Source: Escherichia phage 1-6af
Strand: one strand, 5' to 3'
Sequence record: OR983333.1
Length of the DNA stretch: 64,000 nucleotides
Below, piece after piece: positions 2,249-42,481 of this stretch (positions are counted from its first letter, which is position 1; every line of letters starts with the position of its first letter). Both the position numbers and the translations under genes were made by a program. The notes under the pieces are model-generated. The model saw only the letters and a program-made list of their open reading frames with translations. It ran no database searches and had not been told where the DNA came from.

Positions 2249-3307
2249 ATGGCTAATCCAACTTTATTTGTATCGTATGACCAGAATGGTAAAAAACTTT
2301 CTTTTGCTAACTGGATTTCTGTTCTGTCCCCTCAGGATACCCCGTTCGTATCTATGACCGGTAAAGAGTCTATCAACCAGACTATCTTTAGCTGGCAGAC
2401 CGATGCACTGGCAAGCGTTGACGGTAATAACGCACACGTCGAAGGCTCTCGTGCTGAAGACGGCGAAATGAAACCGACCGTTATCAAATCTAACGTTACT
2501 CAGATTCTGCGTAAGGTTGTTCGTGTTTCTGATACTGCTAACACCACCGCTAACTACGGTCGTGGTCGTGAACTGATGTATCAGCTGGAGAAGAAAGGTA
2601 AAGAGATCAAGCGTGACCTCGAGAAAATCCTTCTGTCCGGTCAGGCTCGTACCGACGTTCTGGCTGACCAGTATCTGACTAACTCTGCAACTGATCCTGC
2701 TGTTGTTGGTCTGAATGACACCCATGCAGCTCGTAAGACTGGTGCATTCCAGTTCCTGTGTGCTCACGGTGGTTTGTCTGGTGGCGTTGTTGACAAGACT
2801 AAGAATGGTCCTGCTGACCCGGATACTGGTGCAGTAACTGTTAAAGTTGCACAGAATGCTTCTAACCCGACCACTAACATTGGTTTTGATGAAGCTGATA
2901 TCTTTGATATGACTCTGCAACTGTATACCGCTGGTTCTGAAGCAGATATCATCATGATTAACCCGGCTCATGCTAAGATCTTCGCTGGTCTGCAAGAAAA
3001 TACTCAGGGTTCACGTAAGCGTATCTTTGAGAACACCAAGCAGTTCATCTACGAAGTTAACAGCATCACTGACCCGCTGGGCCAAAGCTACAAAATCATC
3101 GTTAACCGTTGGATGCCTACCGATGCAGTTTACTTCTTCCGTAGCGCTGACTGGACTCAGATGGTTCTGCGTGCTCCGAAACGTACTGAACTGGCTAAAG
3201 ACGGTTCTTACGAGAAGTGGATGATTGAAATGGAAGTTGGTCTGCGTCACCGCAACCCGTATGCTTCCGGCGTTCTGTTCACTGCTGCGGGAAAGGTGGC
3301 GGCGTAA
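2249..3307 (+). CDS. major capsid protein
   Basis: 352 aa ORF after scaffold; strong RBS (taggag); highly biased codon use; followed by frameshift Ig extension and strong terminator. Confidence 0.7.
   Translation: MANPTLFVSYDQNGKKLSFANWISVLSPQDTPFVSMTGKESINQTIFSWQTDALASVDGNNAHVEGSRAEDGEMKPTVIKSNVTQILRKVVRVSDTANTTANYGRGRELMYQLEKKGKEIKRDLEKILLSGQARTDVLADQYLTNSATDPAVVGLNDTHAARKTGAFQFLCAHGGLSGGVVDKTKNGPADPDTGAVTVKVAQNASNPTTNIGFDEADIFDMTLQLYTAGSEADIIMINPAHAKIFAGLQENTQGSRKRIFENTKQFIYEVNSITDPLGQSYKIIVNRWMPTDAVYFFRSADWTQMVLRAPKRTELAKDGSYEKWMIEMEVGLRHRNPYASGVLFTAAGKVAA
3289..3295 (+). other. -1 programmed ribosomal frameshift slippery heptamer G_GGA_AAG
   Basis: X_XXY_YYZ heptamer in the capsid zero frame, 4 codons before the capsid stop; -1 frame stays open into the Ig-like ORF. 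Confidence 0.55.
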
Positions 3308-3831
3308 CAGTAGACAGTGTGACTGTTAGCCCTGCGTCTTTAGCAAGTCTAGAGACAGGGGCTACTCGGCAGTTCACTGCAAGCGCGGAGAAAAGTGATG
3401 GTTCTACCGAAACAACTGGCTTTACTTGGTCAGTGACAGGAGGTGGTTCTATCACTCAGTCGGGTTTGTATACTGCTCCGAGTGCGTCTCAATCCACTGA
3501 TGTATCCATTACTGCAACTTTAGAAGGTGTTTCTGGTACGGCAACCATTTCCGAAATTGTTGCTCCTGCTCCTACTATTGTAGCTAAGGGTCCAATTACG
3601 GGTAAAACTGGTGGTTCCTCCACTAATTTCACTACCATGTTTACTGTAACTAATTCTATTGCTGATGATTACACACTTGTTGTAACTCCCGCAGAAGCTG
3701 GTACAATAAGTGCTAATAATTCGTTAAAATTAGATGCTGCTGCAAGTGGCGAAGTTACTGTTCAAGCAAGTTTGACAGCCAACCCGTCTATCAATGCAAC
3801 ATGCACTTTTACTGGTGTAACACCTGCTTAA
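3295..3831 (+). CDS. Ig-like (Big_2-type) C-terminal extension of capsid, reached by -1 frameshift (capsid-Ig fusion)
   Basis: -1 frame has no stop from 3295 to 3831; no RBS before the GTG at 3319; Thr/Ser/Gly-rich beta-type domain with Ig-like pattern. Confidence 0.55.
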   Translation, partial: GGGVTVDSVTVSPASLASLETGATRQFTASAEKSDGSTETTGFTWSVTGGGSITQSGLYTAPSASQSTDVSITATLEGVSGTATISEIVAPAPTIVAKGPITGKTGGSSTNFTTMFTVTNSIADDYTLVVTPAEAGTISANNSLKLDAAASGEVTVQASLTANPSINATCTFTGVTPA

Positions 3832-3932: not shown

Positions 3933-4445
3933 ATGGCAATGCCAGATTTCAGAGAAGCTTTTACCTATGATCCAAATACAGGGCATCTTTTCTGGTCTAT
4001 GAGTAACATCTTTAATAAGCAGAAAGGACAACGTGCCGGGTGTATTGGCGACAGAGGTTATCGTAAAGTGACTTTTAAAAAGAAATCATATTTAGAGCAT
4101 AGGGTCATAGCTGAACTCTTTCTTCCTAAGGTAGAAGGGAAGGACTGTGTCAACCATAAGAATGGAATAAAAGACGATAACAGGATTGAGAATCTAGAGT
4201 GGTGTACTCAACAAGAAAATTGTACACATGCTTTTGAAACAGGCCTCTCAACACCTAGGAGTCTTGAGGATAACCCTAATTCCAAACTCACTAAAGAGCA
4301 AGTTCTCTTTTGTTTGGAGAACTACAAACCGAGAGATAGAGAGTTTGGAGCTAGAGCCTTAGCTAGAAAGTTTGGGGTCTCTAAAAGCACAATATCTCTC
4401 ATTACTAAAGGCGTAAACTGGAAGGAGGTTTATTATGATGCCTGA
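3933..4445 (+). CDS. HNH homing endonuclease (HNH_3-like with C-terminal HTH)
   Basis: YDPNTGHLFW...GYRKV...HRVIA...VNHKNG...DNRIENLEW motif pattern; free-standing between structural genes. Confidence 0.8.
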   Translation: MAMPDFREAFTYDPNTGHLFWSMSNIFNKQKGQRAGCIGDRGYRKVTFKKKSYLEHRVIAELFLPKVEGKDCVNHKNGIKDDNRIENLEWCTQQENCTHAFETGLSTPRSLEDNPNSKLTKEQVLFCLENYKPRDREFGARALARKFGVSKSTISLITKGVNWKEVYYDA

Positions 4446-5184
4446 CGTCCAATATCCCATCAATACCTATGGGTGGCTAAAGAAAGCCGTGGCCCTCTGG
4501 GCAGATAGGGACGATGACGAATTTGTTAATCAAATTCCAAACTTTATTAATTTTGCAGAGAAAGAGATTTATCGCAACTTACGTATCCCTCCTCTGGAAA
4601 AGGAAGTGTATCTGAGTATCAAGAATGGTATAGCATTCATCCCACCGGACTACTTGCAAGCTCAATGGATAATGAGAGCTAAAGATGGAGCAATATTCCA
4701 AGTAACTTCCCCAGAAGAGATAAGCTATCGTAAACAGCATGGCACAATTAACCCCTCTCACTGGAATAATCAACCTGTTAATTTTGCTCGTTTCGGAAGT
4801 CGTTTCTTGTTCTATCCACTGATTGATGCTGATACCCCTGTTTACCCTGAAGATGGAAGTCCTGCTATTCCAGCAGAGAACTCTGTAATTCTAAGCTATT
4901 ATGCAGATCCTCCGGAGTTTCACGCAGACGAAGATACTAGTGCAATACTTACGATTGCTCCAGAACTTCTTCTATACTTTACCCTTAGGCATGCATGTCT
5001 TTTTGTTCAGGATGATAACGGTGTTCAAAAATGGTCTGCGTTAGGTAAGGCTATTCTTGATGAGATGGTTGAGCAAGATAAGAAACAGGAGTACTCAGGT
5101 TCTCCTATTGCGATACCCAACAACATGACCAGACTTCAGAGTAGCCTGCCAGATATTTATGGAATACGTACCTCTAGAGTATAA
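4435..5184 (+). CDS. hypothetical virion protein (possible adaptor or tail tubular protein)
   Basis: Position in structural block; overlapping start with upstream gene. Confidence 0.3.
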   Translation: MMPDVQYPINTYGWLKKAVALWADRDDDEFVNQIPNFINFAEKEIYRNLRIPPLEKEVYLSIKNGIAFIPPDYLQAQWIMRAKDGAIFQVTSPEEISYRKQHGTINPSHWNNQPVNFARFGSRFLFYPLIDADTPVYPEDGSPAIPAENSVILSYYADPPEFHADEDTSAILTIAPELLLYFTLRHACLFVQDDNGVQKWSALGKAILDEMVEQDKKQEYSGSPIAIPNNMTRLQSSLPDIYGIRTSRV

Positions 5185-5193
5185 GGAGATTTT

Positions 5194-5742
5194 ATGATCA
5201 GTTACAACAACTCAGCACCTAATGCAGTTAATAATGTAGGTCAGTTTGGTGCTACAGAAGGCTCTATCGGTGCTTACAAATCAGCAGCTGAATACGCAGC
5301 TGATTCCAAGTATTGGGCGATGCTTTCTCAAAAGAACTACAACAGCATTGATGAAATTCTTAAGGAAGTAGAAAGACTCTATGCAGAAGGTAGTTTATTA
5401 AAAGAAGATATTGAACAACTCAAATTTGATTTTGAAAACCAAAACCAAATGCTTCTTGGTCTTATTCAGCAAACGGTCGAAGCTGTTGACAACACTAATA
5501 CTGCTATTGGCGAAGCTAATGCAGCAACAGATCGAGCCAACCAAGCAGTGCAAGATGTTCTTACTCAATTAGATAAGGTTTCTAATATGTCGGTTGTTGC
5601 CACAACCCTTCCTCCGGGAGCACCCGCAACTGGGAGTTTTGATAATAGTACAGGTGTTTTCTCCTTTGGTATCCCTGAAGGCCAGCCCGGTAAAGATGGG
5701 AGGATGGAACAGATGGTACAATCTCTGATATTGGGGATGTAG
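5194..5742 (+). CDS. tail fibre protein, N-terminal segment (frame-broken from downstream ORF)
   Basis: RBS aaggag; ends in the start of a Gly-X-Y collagen-like run that continues in the -1 frame. Confidence 0.45.
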   Translation: MISYNNSAPNAVNNVGQFGATEGSIGAYKSAAEYAADSKYWAMLSQKNYNSIDEILKEVERLYAEGSLLKEDIEQLKFDFENQNQMLLGLIQQTVEAVDNTNTAIGEANAATDRANQAVQDVLTQLDKVSNMSVVATTLPPGAPATGSFDNSTGVFSFGIPEGQPGKDGRMEQMVQSLILGM

Positions 5743-5780
5743 CTATAAGCACTCCTGTAGCTGATGATTATGGGTTCTTT

Positions 5781-8700
5781 GTGGACAAAGACAATGGTGG
5801 TTTGTATCGAACTCCAATGAGTGAGATTGCTAAGCTTGTTCCAGCAGTTGTTAGTTTCAATGGTCGTACTGGTCCTGTTATTCCGGCTGCTGGAGACTAC
5901 ACAGTAAGTCAAGTTACTGGCGCAGCTGCTTCTGGCGTTAACAACGATATTAACCAGATTCGTGGGTTGACTACTGCCCTATCTGTAGCTCAAGGTGGTA
6001 CGGGTGGTAAGACACCGTACGAAGCTAGAACCAACCTCCAGCTGGAAAGGTTCACCCAGAATGATGCTAACACTACTTCAATGAAAGCTGGTGGTGATGG
6101 AAGGATTCGTCTTACAGTTAGCAAGTCCGCTGAAGGCTCTGGGTGGGGTTGCTTTAATGACGACACTGGAGCATACATTCCTCTCGGAGTAGGTCAAGGT
6201 GGTACGGGGGCAACAACGGTGGTCAGTGCCAGAGAGAATCTCGGTGTCAACCGCGTAATACAAGGTGGTAGTTATAGCGATTTCCTTACAGCCAACGGTT
6301 CCAACCGCTTGCGTATCCAGGATAACGGTGCATGGGGCAGCAGCACTGGAACAGGTTGGATACCGTTAGGGGTTGGACAGGGTGGCACTGGGGCAACAAC
6401 AGCAGCTGGAGCTCGAGCTAACCTAAACTTGAATAGGTTTGGGGAAGTAGGTTCTGAGACTCAAGTGTTTTCTCCTAACGGTAGTAAGAAAATCATTATT
6501 ACTAATGACCGATGGGGAGCCTATGACATTGCTGCTTCCAAATACCTCCCTTTAGGTATTGATCAAGGTGGTACTGGGGCAAATACTGCTGATGCAGCGC
6601 GTATGTCTCTTGTTGCTGCTAAAAGTGGGGCTAACTCTGATATAACCTCAATGACTAACAAGGTTACTTTCACGCAGTCTCCAGTGATTCCTGATGCAGT
6701 AGCTAACAACGAACCAGTAGCTCTCGGTCAACTGTCTACTGAAACTGCATTACTTGAAACGAAGATTAACGAAGCTAAAGATGCTGCTGCTGCTGCTAAT
6801 ACTAATGCGGATAGTCGTGTACCAACAGCTCAGCTTTCTAATACGTCTAACGTAGCTCAAGGTGATGCACTAATTGGGGTCAAGGCTCCTTTCGCTGGCG
6901 CTGCGGCTCGTACTCAGCATGACATAAATGCACAATTCAGTAGCATTCTTGACTTTCTTGGTGATAAATACAACGGCACTACGGATGCTGCAAGTTCCTT
7001 TATTTCTGCCAACACACTTCTACCTAAAAGTCGTGAGATCATTGTTCCAAGCGGGACATACCTCCTCAATAGTAATGTAGAATGTTACGGTCGCCGTTTC
7101 GTATTTGAAGAACCAGTGACATTTACTGGTGCTGGTAAATTCTATGGTGCTATTGTAAATCGCATTATGTCGGATGGGACAACTAAAGTTTCCCAATGGG
7201 CTAAGCCAGGAACTACTGAGAGGATGACCACATCTGCTGTTTTCGGTGATAACGGAGTGACGTCAACCGGAATTCAGATTGGTGGGGCTGTGCCATATAA
7301 CGGTGCTGATGGTATTAGAATGTTTACCGATGGTAGTTCTGGGTGGTTAGGTGTTCGTGCATCTAAATGGCCTCACCCTACAGAAATGGCGATATATCCA
7401 AGTTCTAAATCCGGGTCATGTCAGACAATCTCAGGCAGCAATGCTGTAAAAATCCTGTCTGGTGCTAGCATTACATCTGAAGCGATCGGTAAACCTATTG
7501 CTATCTATGATGCACTTTATACTGTAGCATCCGTAACAGCAGATGGTTTTACTGTTAAAAATATCAATGGGTCACCTGTTACTTGGGGATCAAATGCAAC
7601 CCACTCGTACAGCTTGTGTTACTACCACGGCAGTGGTGTATGCAGTGTATCCGGCACTACTGTAACCCGCATTAGTGGTGATCCGTTTGTGATTCCCGAC
7701 GCATCAGTACCTCAGACAATGACTATTAATGGTGTCGACTACCGCGTAGTGGCTTTTACAGACCCTCAGCATGTTACCCTTAGTTCTGCTCCGGGGGATT
7801 CAGCATCAACAGAATATAAATTCTGGGGTACAGTTAACAACCTCAACAGTGCACTTCGGGTTCATCGTATCAATGATGCTGGCTTTGAGGAAAATATTAG
7901 TCTCATTGCCAATAATAGTGGATATTACGCATTGCACGCTGCTGCTAGTAACCCAGCGAATGAGCAGTATCCACTCTACATTGGATCTGGTTGGGAAGAT
8001 AACGGGCAGATGCGAAGAAGCATTATCTCCGCAGCCAATGGAGATGTAACCCTCGGTGGTAACTACGGGAACGGGCCGTTATATGTACCCTATAGCCAAA
8101 CCTCTAACCCACAAATCATGCTGGACAACAGGAATGGCAACGCCACCGTTACAGTCTCTGGTGGATCTACACCGGATGCGTCGTTAACTATTAAGTCTAA
8201 AGGTGCAGGTAAGGTTGTGTTCCACTCCGAGGTAGGTGTTAACGCCGCGATGTATCCATATATAGATAACATCTATTCGTGTGGTAAGTCTGGGAATAGG
8301 TGGTCACAGATATGGGCATCGAACGCTACTATCCAGACTTCTGATGGGACGACAAAAACCGAAGTTCAAGGATCCAATCTATCTACAGACTTTATTCTGG
8401 GCCTAAACCCTGTTTCTTACAAAAACATTGTTGGTGGGAATGTTGTAGAAGAGATTGAAGATGGTGTAGAGGAGATTGAACGTCAGGTGGTAGAAAAGGT
8501 TGTTTCAACTGAAGAAGTCCACGAACGTGTTGTTGATGGAGATGAAGTCTATTACGTCCGTAAGTTCGTTGACAAGGAAGTAGAGCGTCCAGTGTTCCAT
8601 GAGGTTGATCTGCGTGATGAGCTAGGTAATGTCATTGGAACAATCAAAACACCGTTGATGGAGAAAGTAACCGTTCCTAAAACTCGCCAAGTTATTACGG

Positions 8701-8903
8701 AAGTACCGGGTAAACGTACGCACTATGGATTCATCGCACAGGAAGTTAAGGATCTCGTAGACAAGTTGGGAATCTCCGACTTCGGTGGGTACGTTGAAGG
8801 TGAGGACGGTAAGCTTGGTCTTCGCTACGGTGAGTTCATCTCTCCGATAGTGTCTTGCTTGCAGGATATTATCAAGCGACTGGAACTGCTAGAGAAAAAA
8901 TAA
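5781..8903 (+). CDS. tail fibre protein with collagen-like/Gly-rich repeats and C-terminal intramolecular chaperone (peptidase S74-like) domain
   Basis: Four ~62 aa repeats containing GQGGTGATT; C-terminus GFIAQEVKDLV...YGEFISP...LE typical of S74 chaperone domains; frame open upstream from 5694. Confidence 0.65.
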   Translation: MDKDNGGLYRTPMSEIAKLVPAVVSFNGRTGPVIPAAGDYTVSQVTGAAASGVNNDINQIRGLTTALSVAQGGTGGKTPYEARTNLQLERFTQNDANTTSMKAGGDGRIRLTVSKSAEGSGWGCFNDDTGAYIPLGVGQGGTGATTVVSARENLGVNRVIQGGSYSDFLTANGSNRLRIQDNGAWGSSTGTGWIPLGVGQGGTGATTAAGARANLNLNRFGEVGSETQVFSPNGSKKIIITNDRWGAYDIAASKYLPLGIDQGGTGANTADAARMSLVAAKSGANSDITSMTNKVTFTQSPVIPDAVANNEPVALGQLSTETALLETKINEAKDAAAAANTNADSRVPTAQLSNTSNVAQGDALIGVKAPFAGAAARTQHDINAQFSSILDFLGDKYNGTTDAASSFISANTLLPKSREIIVPSGTYLLNSNVECYGRRFVFEEPVTFTGAGKFYGAIVNRIMSDGTTKVSQWAKPGTTERMTTSAVFGDNGVTSTGIQIGGAVPYNGADGIRMFTDGSSGWLGVRASKWPHPTEMAIYPSSKSGSCQTISGSNAVKILSGASITSEAIGKPIAIYDALYTVASVTADGFTVKNINGSPVTWGSNATHSYSLCYYHGSGVCSVSGTTVTRISGDPFVIPDASVPQTMTINGVDYRVVAFTDPQHVTLSSAPGDSASTEYKFWGTVNNLNSALRVHRINDAGFEENISLIANNSGYYALHAAASNPANEQYPLYIGSGWEDNGQMRRSIISAANGDVTLGGNYGNGPLYVPYSQTSNPQIMLDNRNGNATVTVSGGSTPDASLTIKSKGAGKVVFHSEVGVNAAMYPYIDNIYSCGKSGNRWSQIWASNATIQTSDGTTKTEVQGSNLSTDFILGLNPVSYKNIVGGNVVEEIEDGVEEIERQVVEKVVSTEEVHERVVDGDEVYYVRKFVDKEVERPVFHEVDLRDELGNVIGTIKTPLMEKVTVPKTRQVITEVPGKRTHYGFIAQEVKDLVDKLGISDFGGYVEGEDGKLGLRYGEFISPIVSCLQDIIKRLELLEKK

Positions 8904-9795: not shown

Positions 9796-10599
9796 TTGGC
9801 TATTGAAACTAATGCGGTCGTGATTACCGACCTGAACCCGCTCTATCCTAGAGATAGGGATTATATCTACGAAGGGGCGGCCCAAATCCGCCTCATTAAA
9901 CAAACACTAAAGAACACATTCCCTAATGTAACTGAGCCAGTTGATATAGATTCCGACACCTTTAAGATCATGTCAGAGAAGCTCAAGTTTACTGGTGATG
10001 CAATGGATGTTGGCGGTCTTATGATTAAGAACGTTACTCCGGGAACTGGTGACAAGGATGTTGTTACTAAAGGCCAGATGGAAGCGTTCATGAACAACTG
10101 GATGGAGAATAAGCTTTATCGAATTGGTTCTTACTATATCACTGAAGAGGATATCAACCCCGGAGACTCTATCTCTCTTGGGTTTGGCTCTTGGTCTAAA
10201 GTTACTGGTGTTATCATGGGTACTGGTGTGGTCAACCCTGATGGTACAGTTCCTAATGCCTCTAGGGTTGAGTTTACATCTGGAGCTACTGGTGGTAGGA
10301 TTTTCAATACAGTCCAGACAGAGAACTTACCGTTGATAACTATTGATGGCTCTAGCTTCTCTGTTTCCAGTAACACCCATTCACACAATATCAACTTTGG
10401 TCGTGGGGATGCTAGTGGTCACAATAGTTCTCCTAACTGGTATAGTCCCGGTTCTGGGTTTACTCATAGAACAGAATCTGATACTCATACTCACACAATA
10501 TCTGGTTCTGTTAGTTTTGGACGTGATGACATATCTCGTCAACCTATTAACACTTTGCCACCATTCAGAGCGGCTCACATTTGGAGACGTATTAGCTAA
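9796..10599 (+). CDS. tail fibre or tail-associated protein (TTG start)
   Basis: RBS ggagg 6 nt before TTG; Gly/Ser/Thr-rich; His-rich C-terminal region. Confidence 0.4.
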   Translation: MAIETNAVVITDLNPLYPRDRDYIYEGAAQIRLIKQTLKNTFPNVTEPVDIDSDTFKIMSEKLKFTGDAMDVGGLMIKNVTPGTGDKDVVTKGQMEAFMNNWMENKLYRIGSYYITEEDINPGDSISLGFGSWSKVTGVIMGTGVVNPDGTVPNASRVEFTSGATGGRIFNTVQTENLPLITIDGSSFSVSSNTHSHNINFGRGDASGHNSSPNWYSPGSGFTHRTESDTHTHTISGSVSFGRDDISRQPINTLPPFRAAHIWRRIS

Positions 10600-31809: not shown

Positions 31810-32025
31810 TTAGATAGTACACCCATCACAAGTTAAGTCACCTAGCAGGGATAGGGAAAGTAATCTGGATTGCTCATCACTATATAGTTGATCAATCTCT
31901 TCTTTAAGTTTTGCCAACTCAATGAAATTGATAAGTTGACCATGTTCGAGACAGTCTGTTTTTAGTATAAATAAAACTTCAGCGTCTGTTGAATCTTCAC
32001 TTGAATATTTATCAATGTATTCCAT
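31810..32025 (-). CDS. hypothetical protein (71 aa)
   Basis: ORF in leftward operon. Confidence 0.3.
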   Translation of the reverse strand: MEYIDKYSSEDSTDAEVLFILKTDCLEHGQLINFIELAKLKEEIDQLYSDEQSRLLSLSLLGDLTCDGCTI

Positions 32026-42442: not shown

Positions 42443-42481
42443 AACTCTCTCCTGTAAAATACAAATTCTTGTTGTACTCTA

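What the first reader, a model, noticed from the sequence alone, without database searches (positions are those of the whole stretch)
5680..5790. Tail-fibre gene split by a frame change inside a collagen-like Gly-X-Y run
ORF 5194..5742 ends right after GQPGKDG, and the -1 frame, open from 5694, continues EDGTDGT..., giving an uninterrupted GQP-GKD-GED-GTD Gly-X-Y register if the reader shifts at GGG (5698-5700). One extra G would fuse both ORFs into one ~1230 aa fibre. Candidates are a homopolymer sequencing error, a recent frameshift mutation, or slippage producing a full-length and a truncated fibre.
Basis: seen in the sequence. Interest (0 to 1): 0.45.

Follow-up and report, generated by a model that had tools for sequence, protein, structure and literature searches.

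The report
Tail-fibre gene broken by one-base deletion
The long tail-fibre gene of this E. coli phage (Kuravirus 1-6af) is split in two because one A is missing from a short repeat; this is an ordinary frameshift (a recent mutation or a sequence error), not a programmed way of making two proteins.

Summary
ORF 5194..5742 and the -1 frame open from 5694 to 8903 are two halves of one long-tail-fibre gene of Escherichia phage 1-6af, a phiEco32/SU10-like Kuravirus. All seven close relatives examined carry one continuous 1093-1261 aa ORF here. Alignment shows the window lacks one A: GAT GGG AAG GAT became GATGGG-AGGAT. ORF2 carries the shaft, the tailspike-like domain and the C-terminal chaperone, and has no start codon or Shine-Dalgarno of its own. 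Programmed recoding is not supported: there is no slippery heptamer, no homopolymer, no stable downstream structure, and no relative shares the two-frame layout. The capsid gene 2.4 kb upstream does have a textbook G GGA AAG site. This is the only frameshifting indel private to the window in 64 kb. It lies inside the 9-nt unit that sibling phage 1-6bf has deleted entirely. The sibling records look like Illumina/SPAdes assemblies, which favours a real, recent mutation (about 0.5) over an artefact (about 0.38). Only the reads or resequencing can decide. Interest is low.

The parts
4435..5184 (+). Adaptor gene immediately upstream. Its product forms the dock for the long tail fibre (context).
   Evidence: The ORF is listed. 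Relatives annotate it as adaptor or virion structural protein. The Logan homologue hits PF24175 SU10_adaptor. The SU10 structure paper describes the docking role.
5194..5742 (+). ORF1, the N-terminal fragment of the long tail-fibre gene. It has 169 authentic codons (adaptor dock plus coiled coil and the start of the Gly-X-Y run), then 13 out-of-frame codons and TAG.
   Evidence: Listed. Residues 1-171 align to SU10 gp12 (PDB 7z47_D) residues 1-164 with E=5e-60. It matches PHROG 10305 positions 1-164. The exact product is in UniRef as an uncharacterized protein of Escherichia phage 1-6af.
5689..5720 (+). Short collagen-like Gly-X-Y run encoded by imperfect 9-nt repeats: GGTAAAGAT / GGG(A)AGGAT / GGAACAGAT / GGTACA.
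   Evidence: Sequence. Alignment with relatives.
5695..5702 (.). The 8-nt remnant (GATGGGAG) of the ancestral 9-nt unit GATGGGAAG. One A is missing between 5700 and 5702. GATGG direct repeats flank it at 5695-5699 and 5703-5707. Sibling phage 1-6bf lacks the whole unit.
   Evidence: One search shows that window 4435-5694 and 5703-5933 are exact and adjacent in 1-6bf.
5701..5742 (+). Out-of-frame tail of ORF1 (RMEQMVQSLILGM) and the premature stop TAG at 5740-5742.
5694..8903 (+). The -1 frame carrying the rest of the fibre: shaft repeats, a tailspike/endosialidase-like domain and the C-terminal chaperone. It is open from 5694. The first start-like codon is GTG 5781, with no Shine-Dalgarno.
   Evidence: Residues 20-90 match SU10 gp12 residues 441-510. 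It hits PHROGs 28871 and 10305. Positions 5694-5780 encode sequence identical to relatives.
8709..8771 (+). Core of the Peptidase_S74 intramolecular chaperone domain at the C-terminus of the fibre.
   Evidence: Pfam PF13884, E=5.6e-6, 27 bits against a cut-off of 22, ORF2 residues 977-997.
5733..5736 (+). G GGG, the only place in the 5694-5742 overlap where a P-site tRNA could re-pair perfectly after a -1 slip. No stimulator was found. It is listed only as the sole conceivable leak site.

Best explanation
This is one gene, the long tail fibre of Kuravirus phage 1-6af. It is broken by loss of a single A from the Lys codon AAG in the second Gly-Lys-Asp triplet of a short Gly-X-Y run encoded by imperfect 9-nt repeats.

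The frameshift is not programmed. Translation from ATG 5194 yields a 182-aa stub: the adaptor-docking domain and coiled coil, then 13 junk residues. The remaining roughly 1067 codons (shaft, tailspike-like receptor-binding or depolymerase domain, self-cleaving chaperone) have no start signal. At best they are made in traces, and without the part that attaches them to the virion.

I judge the deletion more likely to be a real, very recent mutation in the sequenced phage stock than an artefact. It probably arose by replication slippage or misalignment at the GATGG...GATGG repeat. It would reduce or abolish long-fibre function. The 9-nt-shorter, in-frame allele of sibling phage 1-6bf is either an independent slip at the same hotspot or a frame-restoring 8-nt deletion derived from an allele like this one.

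Shown: one gene; the position and nature of the deletion; absence of recoding signals; uniqueness of the indel in the window. Inferred: that the deletion is in the DNA rather than in the assembly; its mechanism; its phenotypic effect.
For: One gene: FH3, 1-6bf, Ptacy1479, Ptacy1532, WFI101126 and two Logan contig groups all have a continuous 1093-1261 aa ORF directly after the adaptor gene. ORF1 and ORF2 hit the same PDB chain, SU10 gp12, at residues 1-164 and 441-510. They also hit the same PHROG at successive positions. Purifying selection acts in the single frame across the junction: 239 synonymous against 25 non-synonymous codon differences, and 48 of 53 variable columns at position 3.

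Deletion of an A.

Not programmed: there is no X XXY YYZ heptamer, no run of 5 or more, and no start or Shine-Dalgarno for ORF2. The downstream fold has z=+0.71, and 150 of 200 shuffles fold as well. No relative shares the arrangement.

Real rather than artefact: this is the only frameshifting indel private to the window in 64 kb, judged against both FH3 and 1-6bf, so the assembly is not indel-noisy. The sibling 1-6bf was sequenced with Illumina and assembled with SPAdes (PMC11773471). Both sibling records carry exact 127-nt terminal overlaps typical of SPAdes k=127 contigs. The deletion is not in a long homopolymer. It falls inside the 9-nt unit that 1-6bf has deleted, within 1.5 kb of otherwise perfect identity. 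A random independent error would land there with probability of about 9 in 64000.

Precedent: the lambda PaPa stf frameshift.
Against: No reads or independent assembly of 1-6af were available. The exact ORF1 and adaptor products are not in the gene-position index, and the exact junction is absent from IMG/VR. The sequencing method of 1-6af itself is inferred from its siblings.

Biology argues against a fixed null allele. In SU10 the long fibres make first contact and prime nozzle formation. All BASEL Gordonclarkvirinae depend completely on O-antigen, which is presumed to be read by the long fibres. A fibre-less Kuravirus may therefore plate poorly or not at all.

The rest of the gene shows no secondary decay, which fits either a very recent mutation or an artefact. 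Other deposited Kuravirus records (ShigP1, EcK-vB) have clearly error-shattered fibre genes, so faulty records of this gene exist.
Confidence: 0.5

Rival explanations
1. Sequencing, assembly or consensus artefact. The phage really has the intact 9-nt unit (GATGGGAAG) and a continuous 1236-aa fibre, and one A was lost when the consensus was made. This could happen by indel mis-calling at the tandem 9-nt repeats, possibly in a lysate mixed for the 2-unit and 3-unit alleles, or during a polishing, reference-mapping or manual editing step.
For: The gene is otherwise perfectly intact and under strong purifying selection in relatives. Long fibres appear functionally important in this group. The site is a repeat where alignment-based indel calling is ambiguous, and where the sibling isolate from the same laboratory differs by 9 nt. 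Error-fragmented Kuravirus fibre genes do exist in GenBank. The sequencing method of 1-6af itself is not documented in any held paper.
Against: The window has no other private frameshifting indel in 64 kb. The sibling genomes are Illumina/SPAdes contigs, and majority-read single-base deletions outside homopolymers are very rare for that route. A de Bruijn path cannot invent the 1-6bf-type flank joined to an insert lacking one base unless reads contain it. A random error landing inside the 9 nt that are polymorphic in the sibling is improbable unless the artefact is itself caused by the repeat.
Confidence: 0.38
2. Programmed or functionally exploited -1 ribosomal frameshifting (or transcriptional slippage). 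This would make both a 20-kDa stub and a full-length fibre from the sequence as it stands.
For: The required shift is -1, and the overlap 5694-5742 is open in both frames. A rare AGG codon follows GGG, and the SD-like GGGAGG could pause ribosomes. G GGG at 5733-5736 allows perfect P-site re-pairing. The same genome does use -1 frameshifting in its capsid gene. If the deletion is real and the fibre is essential, some read-through would be needed for viability.
Against: There is no X XXY YYZ heptamer and no A or T run for RNA polymerase slippage. No slippery site lies at the 10-14 nt spacing from the SD-like motif. There is no stable downstream structure (z=+0.71). None of seven close relatives, nor SU10, has a two-frame arrangement, and all read straight through. 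tRNA-Gly on GGG 5698-5700 would re-pair to UGG with a mismatch. The stub would compete with full-length chains for the dock.
Confidence: 0.04
3. A genuine two-gene architecture, with a separately translated anchor protein (ORF1) and fibre or depolymerase protein (ORF2). This would resemble the proximal and distal fibre proteins gp14/gp15 of phiEco32 (gp12/gp13 of SU10), or a free soluble depolymerase made by re-initiation at GTG 5781 or ATG 5817.
For: phiEco32 and SU10 do build the long fibre from two polypeptides. ORF1's stop lies 39 nt upstream of an in-frame GTG, so weak termination-reinitiation is conceivable.
Against: The break lies inside a conserved Gly-X-Y run in the middle of a domain that is continuous in SU10 gp12 and in all relatives. 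Twenty-nine conserved codons are left without a start. No Shine-Dalgarno precedes any candidate start. The ORF2 product would lack the residues that dock on the adaptor. The arrangement occurs in one genome only.
Confidence: 0.02

Closest known systems
Lambda PaPa stf frameshift (Hendrix & Duda 1992, as summarised in PMC12617516)
   Same: A single-base frameshift splits a side or long tail-fibre gene into an N-terminal ORF and an orphan C-terminal ORF. Intact relatives, or the original isolate, have one continuous gene. The lesion is a mutation, not recoding.
   Different: Lambda side fibres are demonstrably dispensable and their loss was verified experimentally. Here the reality of the lesion is unverified, and Kuravirus long fibres are thought to be needed for O-antigen recognition. 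The phage family and fibre fold also differ.
SU10 long tail fibre proximal protein gp12 (PDB 7z47 chain D) and the phiEco32 gp14/gp15 fibres
   Same: ORF1 is homologous to gp12 residues 1-164 (E=5e-60), including the adaptor-docking N-terminus and the GxPGKDG motif. ORF2 residues 20-90 match gp12 residues 441-510. The gene sits in the same position after the adaptor gene.
   Different: SU10 and phiEco32 use two proteins (proximal and distal). The 1-6af, FH3 and WFI101126 lineage uses one long protein of about 1100-1260 aa, with a tailspike-like domain and a C-terminal S74 chaperone. In the window this single gene is interrupted.
Programmed -1 frameshift sites: the Kuravirus/T7-type capsid extension and the lambda G/GT G GGA AAG site
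   Same: A -1 frame relationship between two overlapping ORFs in a phage structural module. The same genome has such a site at 3289-3295 (G GGA AAG) joining the capsid gene to the Ig-like ORF.
   Different: The fibre junction has no slippery heptamer, no stimulator and no conservation. It works like a mutation, not like these sites.
Hypermutable repeat tracts that switch phage receptor-binding genes on and off, such as the poly-G tracts in Campylobacter phages (from my own knowledge, not checked here)
   Same: Length changes at a short repeat inside a receptor-binding-protein gene distinguish very closely related isolates. Here the changes are -1 nt in 1-6af and -9 nt in 1-6bf at the same unit.
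   Different: Contingency tracts are long homopolymers or many perfect short repeats with high slippage rates. Here there are only about three imperfect 9-nt units, with G3 and A2 runs, and one observed out-of-frame allele.
T5 pb1 L-shaped fibre and K1F endosialidase-type fibres with a C-terminal intramolecular chaperone (Peptidase_S74)
   Same: The C-terminus carries a Peptidase_S74 chaperone, and there is a weak endosialidase-like hit. The fibre is modular, with an N-terminal anchor.
   Different: This concerns only domain content, which has no bearing on the frameshift.

Membership tests
Kuravirus long tail fibre gene (SU10 gp12-like) | N-terminal domain homologous to the adaptor-docking segment of SU10 gp12 | tested here: met
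   ORF1 residues 1-171 align to 7z47_D residues 1-164, E=5e-60. The paper built residues 1-90 docked on adaptor gp11.
Kuravirus long tail fibre gene (SU10 gp12-like) | Located directly downstream of the adaptor gene in the structural module | tested here: met
   Adaptor gene at 4435..5184, fibre ATG at 5194. Synteny is the same in FH3, 1-6bf, Ptacy, WFI101126, phiEco32 and the Logan contig.
Kuravirus long tail fibre gene (SU10 gp12-like) | One uninterrupted reading frame from the dock to the distal domain | tested here: not met
   The window has a stop at 5740-5742 after a 1-nt deletion. All seven relatives are uninterrupted. This is the anomaly: the window carries a disrupted copy of the gene.
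Programmed -1 ribosomal frameshift site | Slippery heptamer X XXY YYZ in the zero frame within the overlap | tested here: not met
   None in 5685-5742. The capsid gene has G GGA AAG at 3289-3295 as a within-genome positive example.
Programmed -1 ribosomal frameshift site | Stimulatory element: a downstream hairpin or pseudoknot, or a Shine-Dalgarno-like sequence 10-14 nt upstream of the slip site | tested here: not met
   The 5701-5800 fold is -19 kcal/mol, z=+0.71, and 150 of 200 shuffles fold as well. The SD-like GGGAGG at 5698-5703 has no slippery sequence at the right distance.
Programmed -1 ribosomal frameshift site | Two-frame arrangement conserved in related genomes | tested here: not met
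   All relatives are in frame across the junction.
Programmed -1 ribosomal frameshift site | Both products detected, with measurable frameshift efficiency | not testable with these tools
   This needs proteomics or a reporter assay.
Frameshift-inactivated tail-fibre allele (lambda PaPa stf type) | Single-base indel relative to intact wild relatives, giving a truncated N-terminal ORF and a start-less C-terminal ORF | tested here: met
   A 1-nt deletion against FH3 and the others. ORF2 lacks a start and a Shine-Dalgarno.
Frameshift-inactivated tail-fibre allele (lambda PaPa stf type) | Lesion verified in the phage DNA, and virions shown to lack the fibre | not testable with these tools
   No reads or independent assembly were found. 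This needs resequencing and electron microscopy or mass spectrometry.
Simple-sequence contingency locus in a receptor-binding gene | Long homopolymer or many perfect short tandem repeats | tested here: not met
   Only G3 and A2 runs and about three imperfect 9-nt units.
Simple-sequence contingency locus in a receptor-binding gene | Length polymorphism at the tract among near-identical isolates | tested here: inconclusive
   There are two different length changes (-1 and -9) at the same unit in 1-6af and 1-6bf, with perfect flanks. This rests on two genomes only, and one change may be an artefact.

The most novel reading that the evidence does not exclude
The 9-nt Gly-X-Y repeat acts as a small mutational switch for the long tail fibre. 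Slippage between the GATGG repeats throws the gene out of frame (the 1-6af allele) and puts it back in frame (an 8-nt deletion giving exactly the 1-6bf allele). Sewage populations of this Kuravirus lineage would then carry fibre-off and fibre-on variants. Low-level -1 slippage, for instance at G GGG 5733-5736, might keep the off variant marginally infectious.
Probability: 0.04. Interest if true: 0.5.

Novelty: new member of a known kind. Interest (0 to 1): 0.12.

Why it matters
The practical value is for annotation and for phage-therapy characterisation. The two 'hypothetical proteins' in phage 1-6af should be annotated as one disrupted long-tail-fibre gene.

If the deletion is real, 1-6af should have impaired adsorption or a narrower host range than its published sibling 1-6bf. 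It would also make a convenient natural test of whether Kuravirus long fibres are essential.

If the deletion is an artefact, the record needs a one-base correction. Either way, no new recoding mechanism is indicated.

Tried and rejected
(1) I looked up the exact ORF1 product and the adaptor product in the gene-position index, hoping to find independent assemblies of the same phage. Neither is on record.

(2) I scanned IMG/VR for the exact 34-nt frameshifted junction and got no hits.

(3) I scanned IMG/VR, metagenomes and GTDB genomes with a degenerate pattern matching both the in-frame and the 1-nt-deleted allele. There were 172 loci and 203 matches. All were the in-frame length, but none is a Kuravirus; they are unrelated collagen-like genes, so the result is uninformative.

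(4) I tried to fetch the 1-6af record under the neighbouring accession OR983333. It is not in the collections. The phage collection does not contain the window's own record.

(5) A literature search for 1-6af found only the 1-6bf paper, and 1-6af itself is not described.

(6) I considered chimeric de Bruijn path-switching between a 1-6bf-like and an FH3-like genome as the source of the 8-nt insert. I rejected it as a simple explanation because flank SNPs 7-10 nt from the insert mean the required k-mers would have to exist in reads.

(7) I considered a two-gene architecture like phiEco32 gp14/gp15. I rejected it because the break lies inside a conserved motif and ORF2 lacks start signals.

(8) I considered a noisy long-read assembly. 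I rejected it because the fibre indel is the only window-private frameshifting indel in 64 kb.
Full report
**What the window is.** The 64-kb window is a phiEco32/SU10-like podophage of E. coli, genus Kuravirus, subfamily Gordonclarkvirinae. It is 99.3-99.4% identical to Escherichia phage FH3 (OR886155) and about 98.8% identical to Escherichia phage 1-6bf (OR983334). The exact 182-aa product of ORF 5194..5742 is recorded in UniRef as an uncharacterized protein of Escherichia phage 1-6af, taxid 3117707. The window is therefore phage 1-6af, a sibling of 1-6bf. The 1-6bf phage was isolated from hospital sewage in Lahore on an avian pathogenic E. coli strain, sequenced with Illumina and assembled with SPAdes (PMC11773471). 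No held paper describes 1-6af itself.

**Checking the observation.**
- ORF1 runs from ATG 5194 through ...GGC CAG CCC GGT AAA GAT GGG (G-Q-P-G-K-D-G, ending at 5700).
- It then continues AGG ATG GAA CAG ATG GTA CAA TCT CTG ATA TTG GGG ATG TAG, which is 13 further codons to the stop at 5740-5742.
- The -1 frame is closed by TAA at 5691-5693 and open from 5694 to 8903.
- From 5700 the -1 frame reads GAG GAT GGA ACA GAT GGT ACA... (E-D-G-T-D-G-T).
- Adding one base fuses the two frames into a 1236-aa protein.
- The only inaccuracies are that ORF1 does not stop immediately after GKDG, and, as shown below, that the missing base is not a G.

**One gene or two.** Every close relative has one continuous fibre gene starting 10 nt after the adaptor gene. 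The lengths (excluding the stop codon) are:

| Relative | Fibre length (aa) |
|---|---|
| FH3 | 1236 |
| 1-6bf | 1198 |
| Ptacy1479 | 1092 |
| WFI101126 | 1096 |
| Ptacy1532 | 1094 |
| Logan assemblies of two sequencing runs | 1261 |

- ORF1 residues 1-171 align to residues 1-164 of the solved SU10 long-tail-fibre protein gp12 (PDB 7z47_D, E=5e-60). The SU10 chain continues in frame through the equivalent GEPGKDGSVKD.
- ORF2 residues 20-90 align to residues 441-510 of the same chain.
- Both ORFs hit PHROG 10305 (tail fibre protein), at profile positions 1-164 and 438-659.
- ORF2 ends with a Peptidase_S74 intramolecular chaperone and has a weak endosialidase/tailspike-like match.
- In five intact relatives, the 86 codons around the junction show 239 synonymous against 25 non-synonymous pairwise codon differences. 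Of 53 variable columns, 48 are at codon position 3 of the single continuous frame.
- The Gly-X-Y continuity across the two frames is therefore homology, not coincidence. The window holds one gene with a frame break.

**What exactly changed.** The relatives read GGT AAA GAT GGG AAG GAT GGx ACA GAT GGT ACA, which is G-K-D-G-K-D-G-T-D-G-T. The window reads GGTAAAGATGGG-AGGATGGAACAGATGGTACA, so one A of the AAG Lys codon is missing.

Locally the window is a 1-6bf-type allele. Window 4435-5694 and 5703-5933 are exact matches to 1-6bf and are adjacent there. Relative to 1-6bf, the window therefore carries exactly 8 extra nucleotides, GATGGGAG (5695-5702), bounded by GATGG direct repeats. FH3 and the others have 9 nt at this position. 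The ancestral 9-nt unit has thus been hit twice in this very tight lineage: -1 nt in 1-6af and -9 nt in 1-6bf.

**Is it programmed recoding?** No supporting feature was found.
- The 5694-5742 overlap contains no X XXY YYZ heptamer and no homopolymer longer than GGGG.
- A P-site tRNA-Gly on GGG 5698-5700 would have to re-pair with UGG.
- The RNA downstream is no more structured than shuffled controls. The minimum free energy is -19 kcal/mol, z=+0.71, and 150 of 200 shuffles fold as well.
- The SD-like GGGAGG has no slippery sequence 10-14 nt downstream.
- No relative shares the two-frame layout.
- The same genome contains a textbook site for contrast. The capsid gene ends ...GCG GGA AAG GTG GCG GCG TAA, with G GGA AAG at 3289-3295. 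The -1 frame from there runs into the Ig-like ORF 3319..3831. This is the known Kuravirus capsid extension by ribosomal slippage (PMC9965538).
- ORF2 has no independent expression signals either. The first start-like codons in its frame are GTG 5781, TTG 5802 and ATG 5817, none preceded by a Shine-Dalgarno motif. Twenty-nine conserved codons lie upstream of the first of them.

**Consequence if the sequence is correct.** In SU10, six trimeric long fibres dock on the adaptor dodecamer through the N-terminal roughly 90 residues of the fibre protein and carry their receptor-binding domains distally. They make first contact with the cell and prime the short fibres and nozzle proteins for nozzle formation (PMC9509320).

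The frameshift would leave a 182-aa docking stub and separate it from everything that binds the host. The short tail fibre (9796..10599) is intact and matches SU10 chain 7z47_I at E=2.5e-168. However, the BASEL study found that all its Gordonclarkvirinae isolates depend completely on O-antigen. It interprets the long fibres as the O-antigen readers that act before the short fibres (PMC11990801). A true null allele should therefore be costly.

**Real mutation or artefact.** This cannot be settled without reads, so I weighed the indirect evidence.

For a real mutation:
- I compared the window with FH3 and with 1-6bf across all 64 kb and listed every gap.
- Apart from compensated pairs in divergent patches, in-frame indels and intergenic differences, there are few isolated small indels. 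Those at 32025 and 33141 are private to FH3. The one at 42460 is private to 1-6bf.
- The fibre junction is the only frameshifting indel private to the window. The assembly is therefore not indel-noisy.
- The FH3 and 1-6bf records each carry an exact 127-nt terminal overlap. I interpret this, from general knowledge of SPAdes output, as untrimmed k=127 contigs. It agrees with the published method for 1-6bf.
- A consensus single-base deletion outside a homopolymer is very unusual for that route.
- The deletion falls inside the 9 nt that are polymorphic in the sibling. A random independent error would do this with probability of about 9 in 64000. A site-specific process is therefore involved. That process is either in vivo slippage at the repeat or a repeat-induced consensus artefact, for example from a lysate mixed for the two alleles.

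For an artefact:
- The gene shows no further decay.
- The fibre is expected to be important.
- The method used for 1-6af is only inferred.
- GenBank does hold Kuravirus records with error-shattered fibre genes (ShigP1 and EcK-vB).

I put a real recent mutation at about 0.5, an artefact at about 0.38, and all functional or recoding readings together at about 0.1.

**An inference worth testing.** The 1-6bf allele (GKDGTDGT) can be derived in two ways. One is a 9-nt slipped-strand deletion between GATGG repeats from the ancestral allele. The other is an 8-nt deletion between the same repeats from a 1-6af-like frameshift allele, which would be a frame-restoring pseudo-reversion. Both routes give the identical sequence. 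The second route would imply that the frameshift is real and selected against. Passaging 1-6af and watching the junction would test this.

**Comparison with known cases.** The closest analogue is the lambda PaPa stf frameshift. That single-base lesion splits the side-tail-fibre gene of laboratory lambda, whereas Ur-lambda has it intact (Hendrix & Duda 1992, as summarised in PMC12617516).
- This case differs in that the lesion is unverified and the fibre is probably less dispensable.
- It is a disrupted member of the SU10 gp12-like long-tail-fibre family.
- It fails every sequence-testable criterion for a programmed -1 frameshift site.
- It does not have the long simple-sequence tract of a contingency locus.

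**Verdict.** The 'one gene split by a frame change' reading is right. The slippage option is not supported, and the exact repair is an A (Lys) rather than a G (Glu). This is an ordinary frameshift-disrupted tail-fibre gene, or a one-base error in the record. It has practical relevance for annotation and for interpreting the host range of 1-6af, but little general novelty.

Noticed in passing
window 3289-3295 (with ORFs 2249..3307 and 3319..3831): The major capsid gene ends with a canonical -1 slippery heptamer, G GGA AAG, 12 nt before its stop. The -1 frame continues into the Ig-like domain ORF. This matches the capsid 'natural and extended isoforms via ribosomal slippage' described for Kuravirus YF01 (PMC9965538).
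   Followed up: partly
window 3933..4445: An HNH_3 homing-endonuclease ORF sits between the Ig-like ORF and the adaptor gene and overlaps the adaptor start by 11 nt. It is present in the window, FH3, 1-6bf and Logan contig SRR29378875_674. It is absent from WFI101126, Ptacy1479, Ptacy1532 and phiEco32, which have only about 100 nt there.
   Followed up: partly
window 5934-6590: The fibre shaft contains repeated modules (…GVGQGGTGATT… motifs) whose copy number differs between the window/FH3 and 1-6bf. The indels are 27, 9, 27, 15, 33 and 186 nt, all multiples of three, so this is a second in-frame length-variable region in the same gene.
   Followed up: no
window 4435-8700: The fibre gene is a mosaic. 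Positions 4435-5933 are an exact match to 1-6bf (apart from the 8 nt) but only 94-98% identical to FH3. Blocks at 6059-6170, 6438-6587 and 8238-8687 are 100% identical to FH3 but not to 1-6bf. This suggests recent recombination among co-circulating sewage phages, or less likely a mixed-sample assembly.
   Followed up: partly
L006/L007 (FH3, OR886155) and L185/L186 (1-6bf, OR983334), record ends: Both deposited genomes begin and end with the same exact 127 nt. This looks like an untrimmed SPAdes k=127 circular-contig overlap rather than biological terminal repeats. The true genome lengths would then be 127 nt shorter than deposited.
   Followed up: partly
L008 (ShigP1, PQ818763) and L009 (EcK-vB, PV591327): In these Kuravirus records the long-fibre genes are broken into several short ORFs or left unannotated, whereas phiEco32 has two intact genes. 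These are probably indel-rich assemblies.
   Followed up: no
window 32025, 33141 and 42460: There are small length differences at a T5/T6 run between the Shine-Dalgarno and ATG of a minus-strand gene, at a CT repeat near the end of a 42-aa ORF, and at an A4/A5 run. The first two are private to FH3 and the third to 1-6bf, and the window agrees with the other relative each time.
   Followed up: partly
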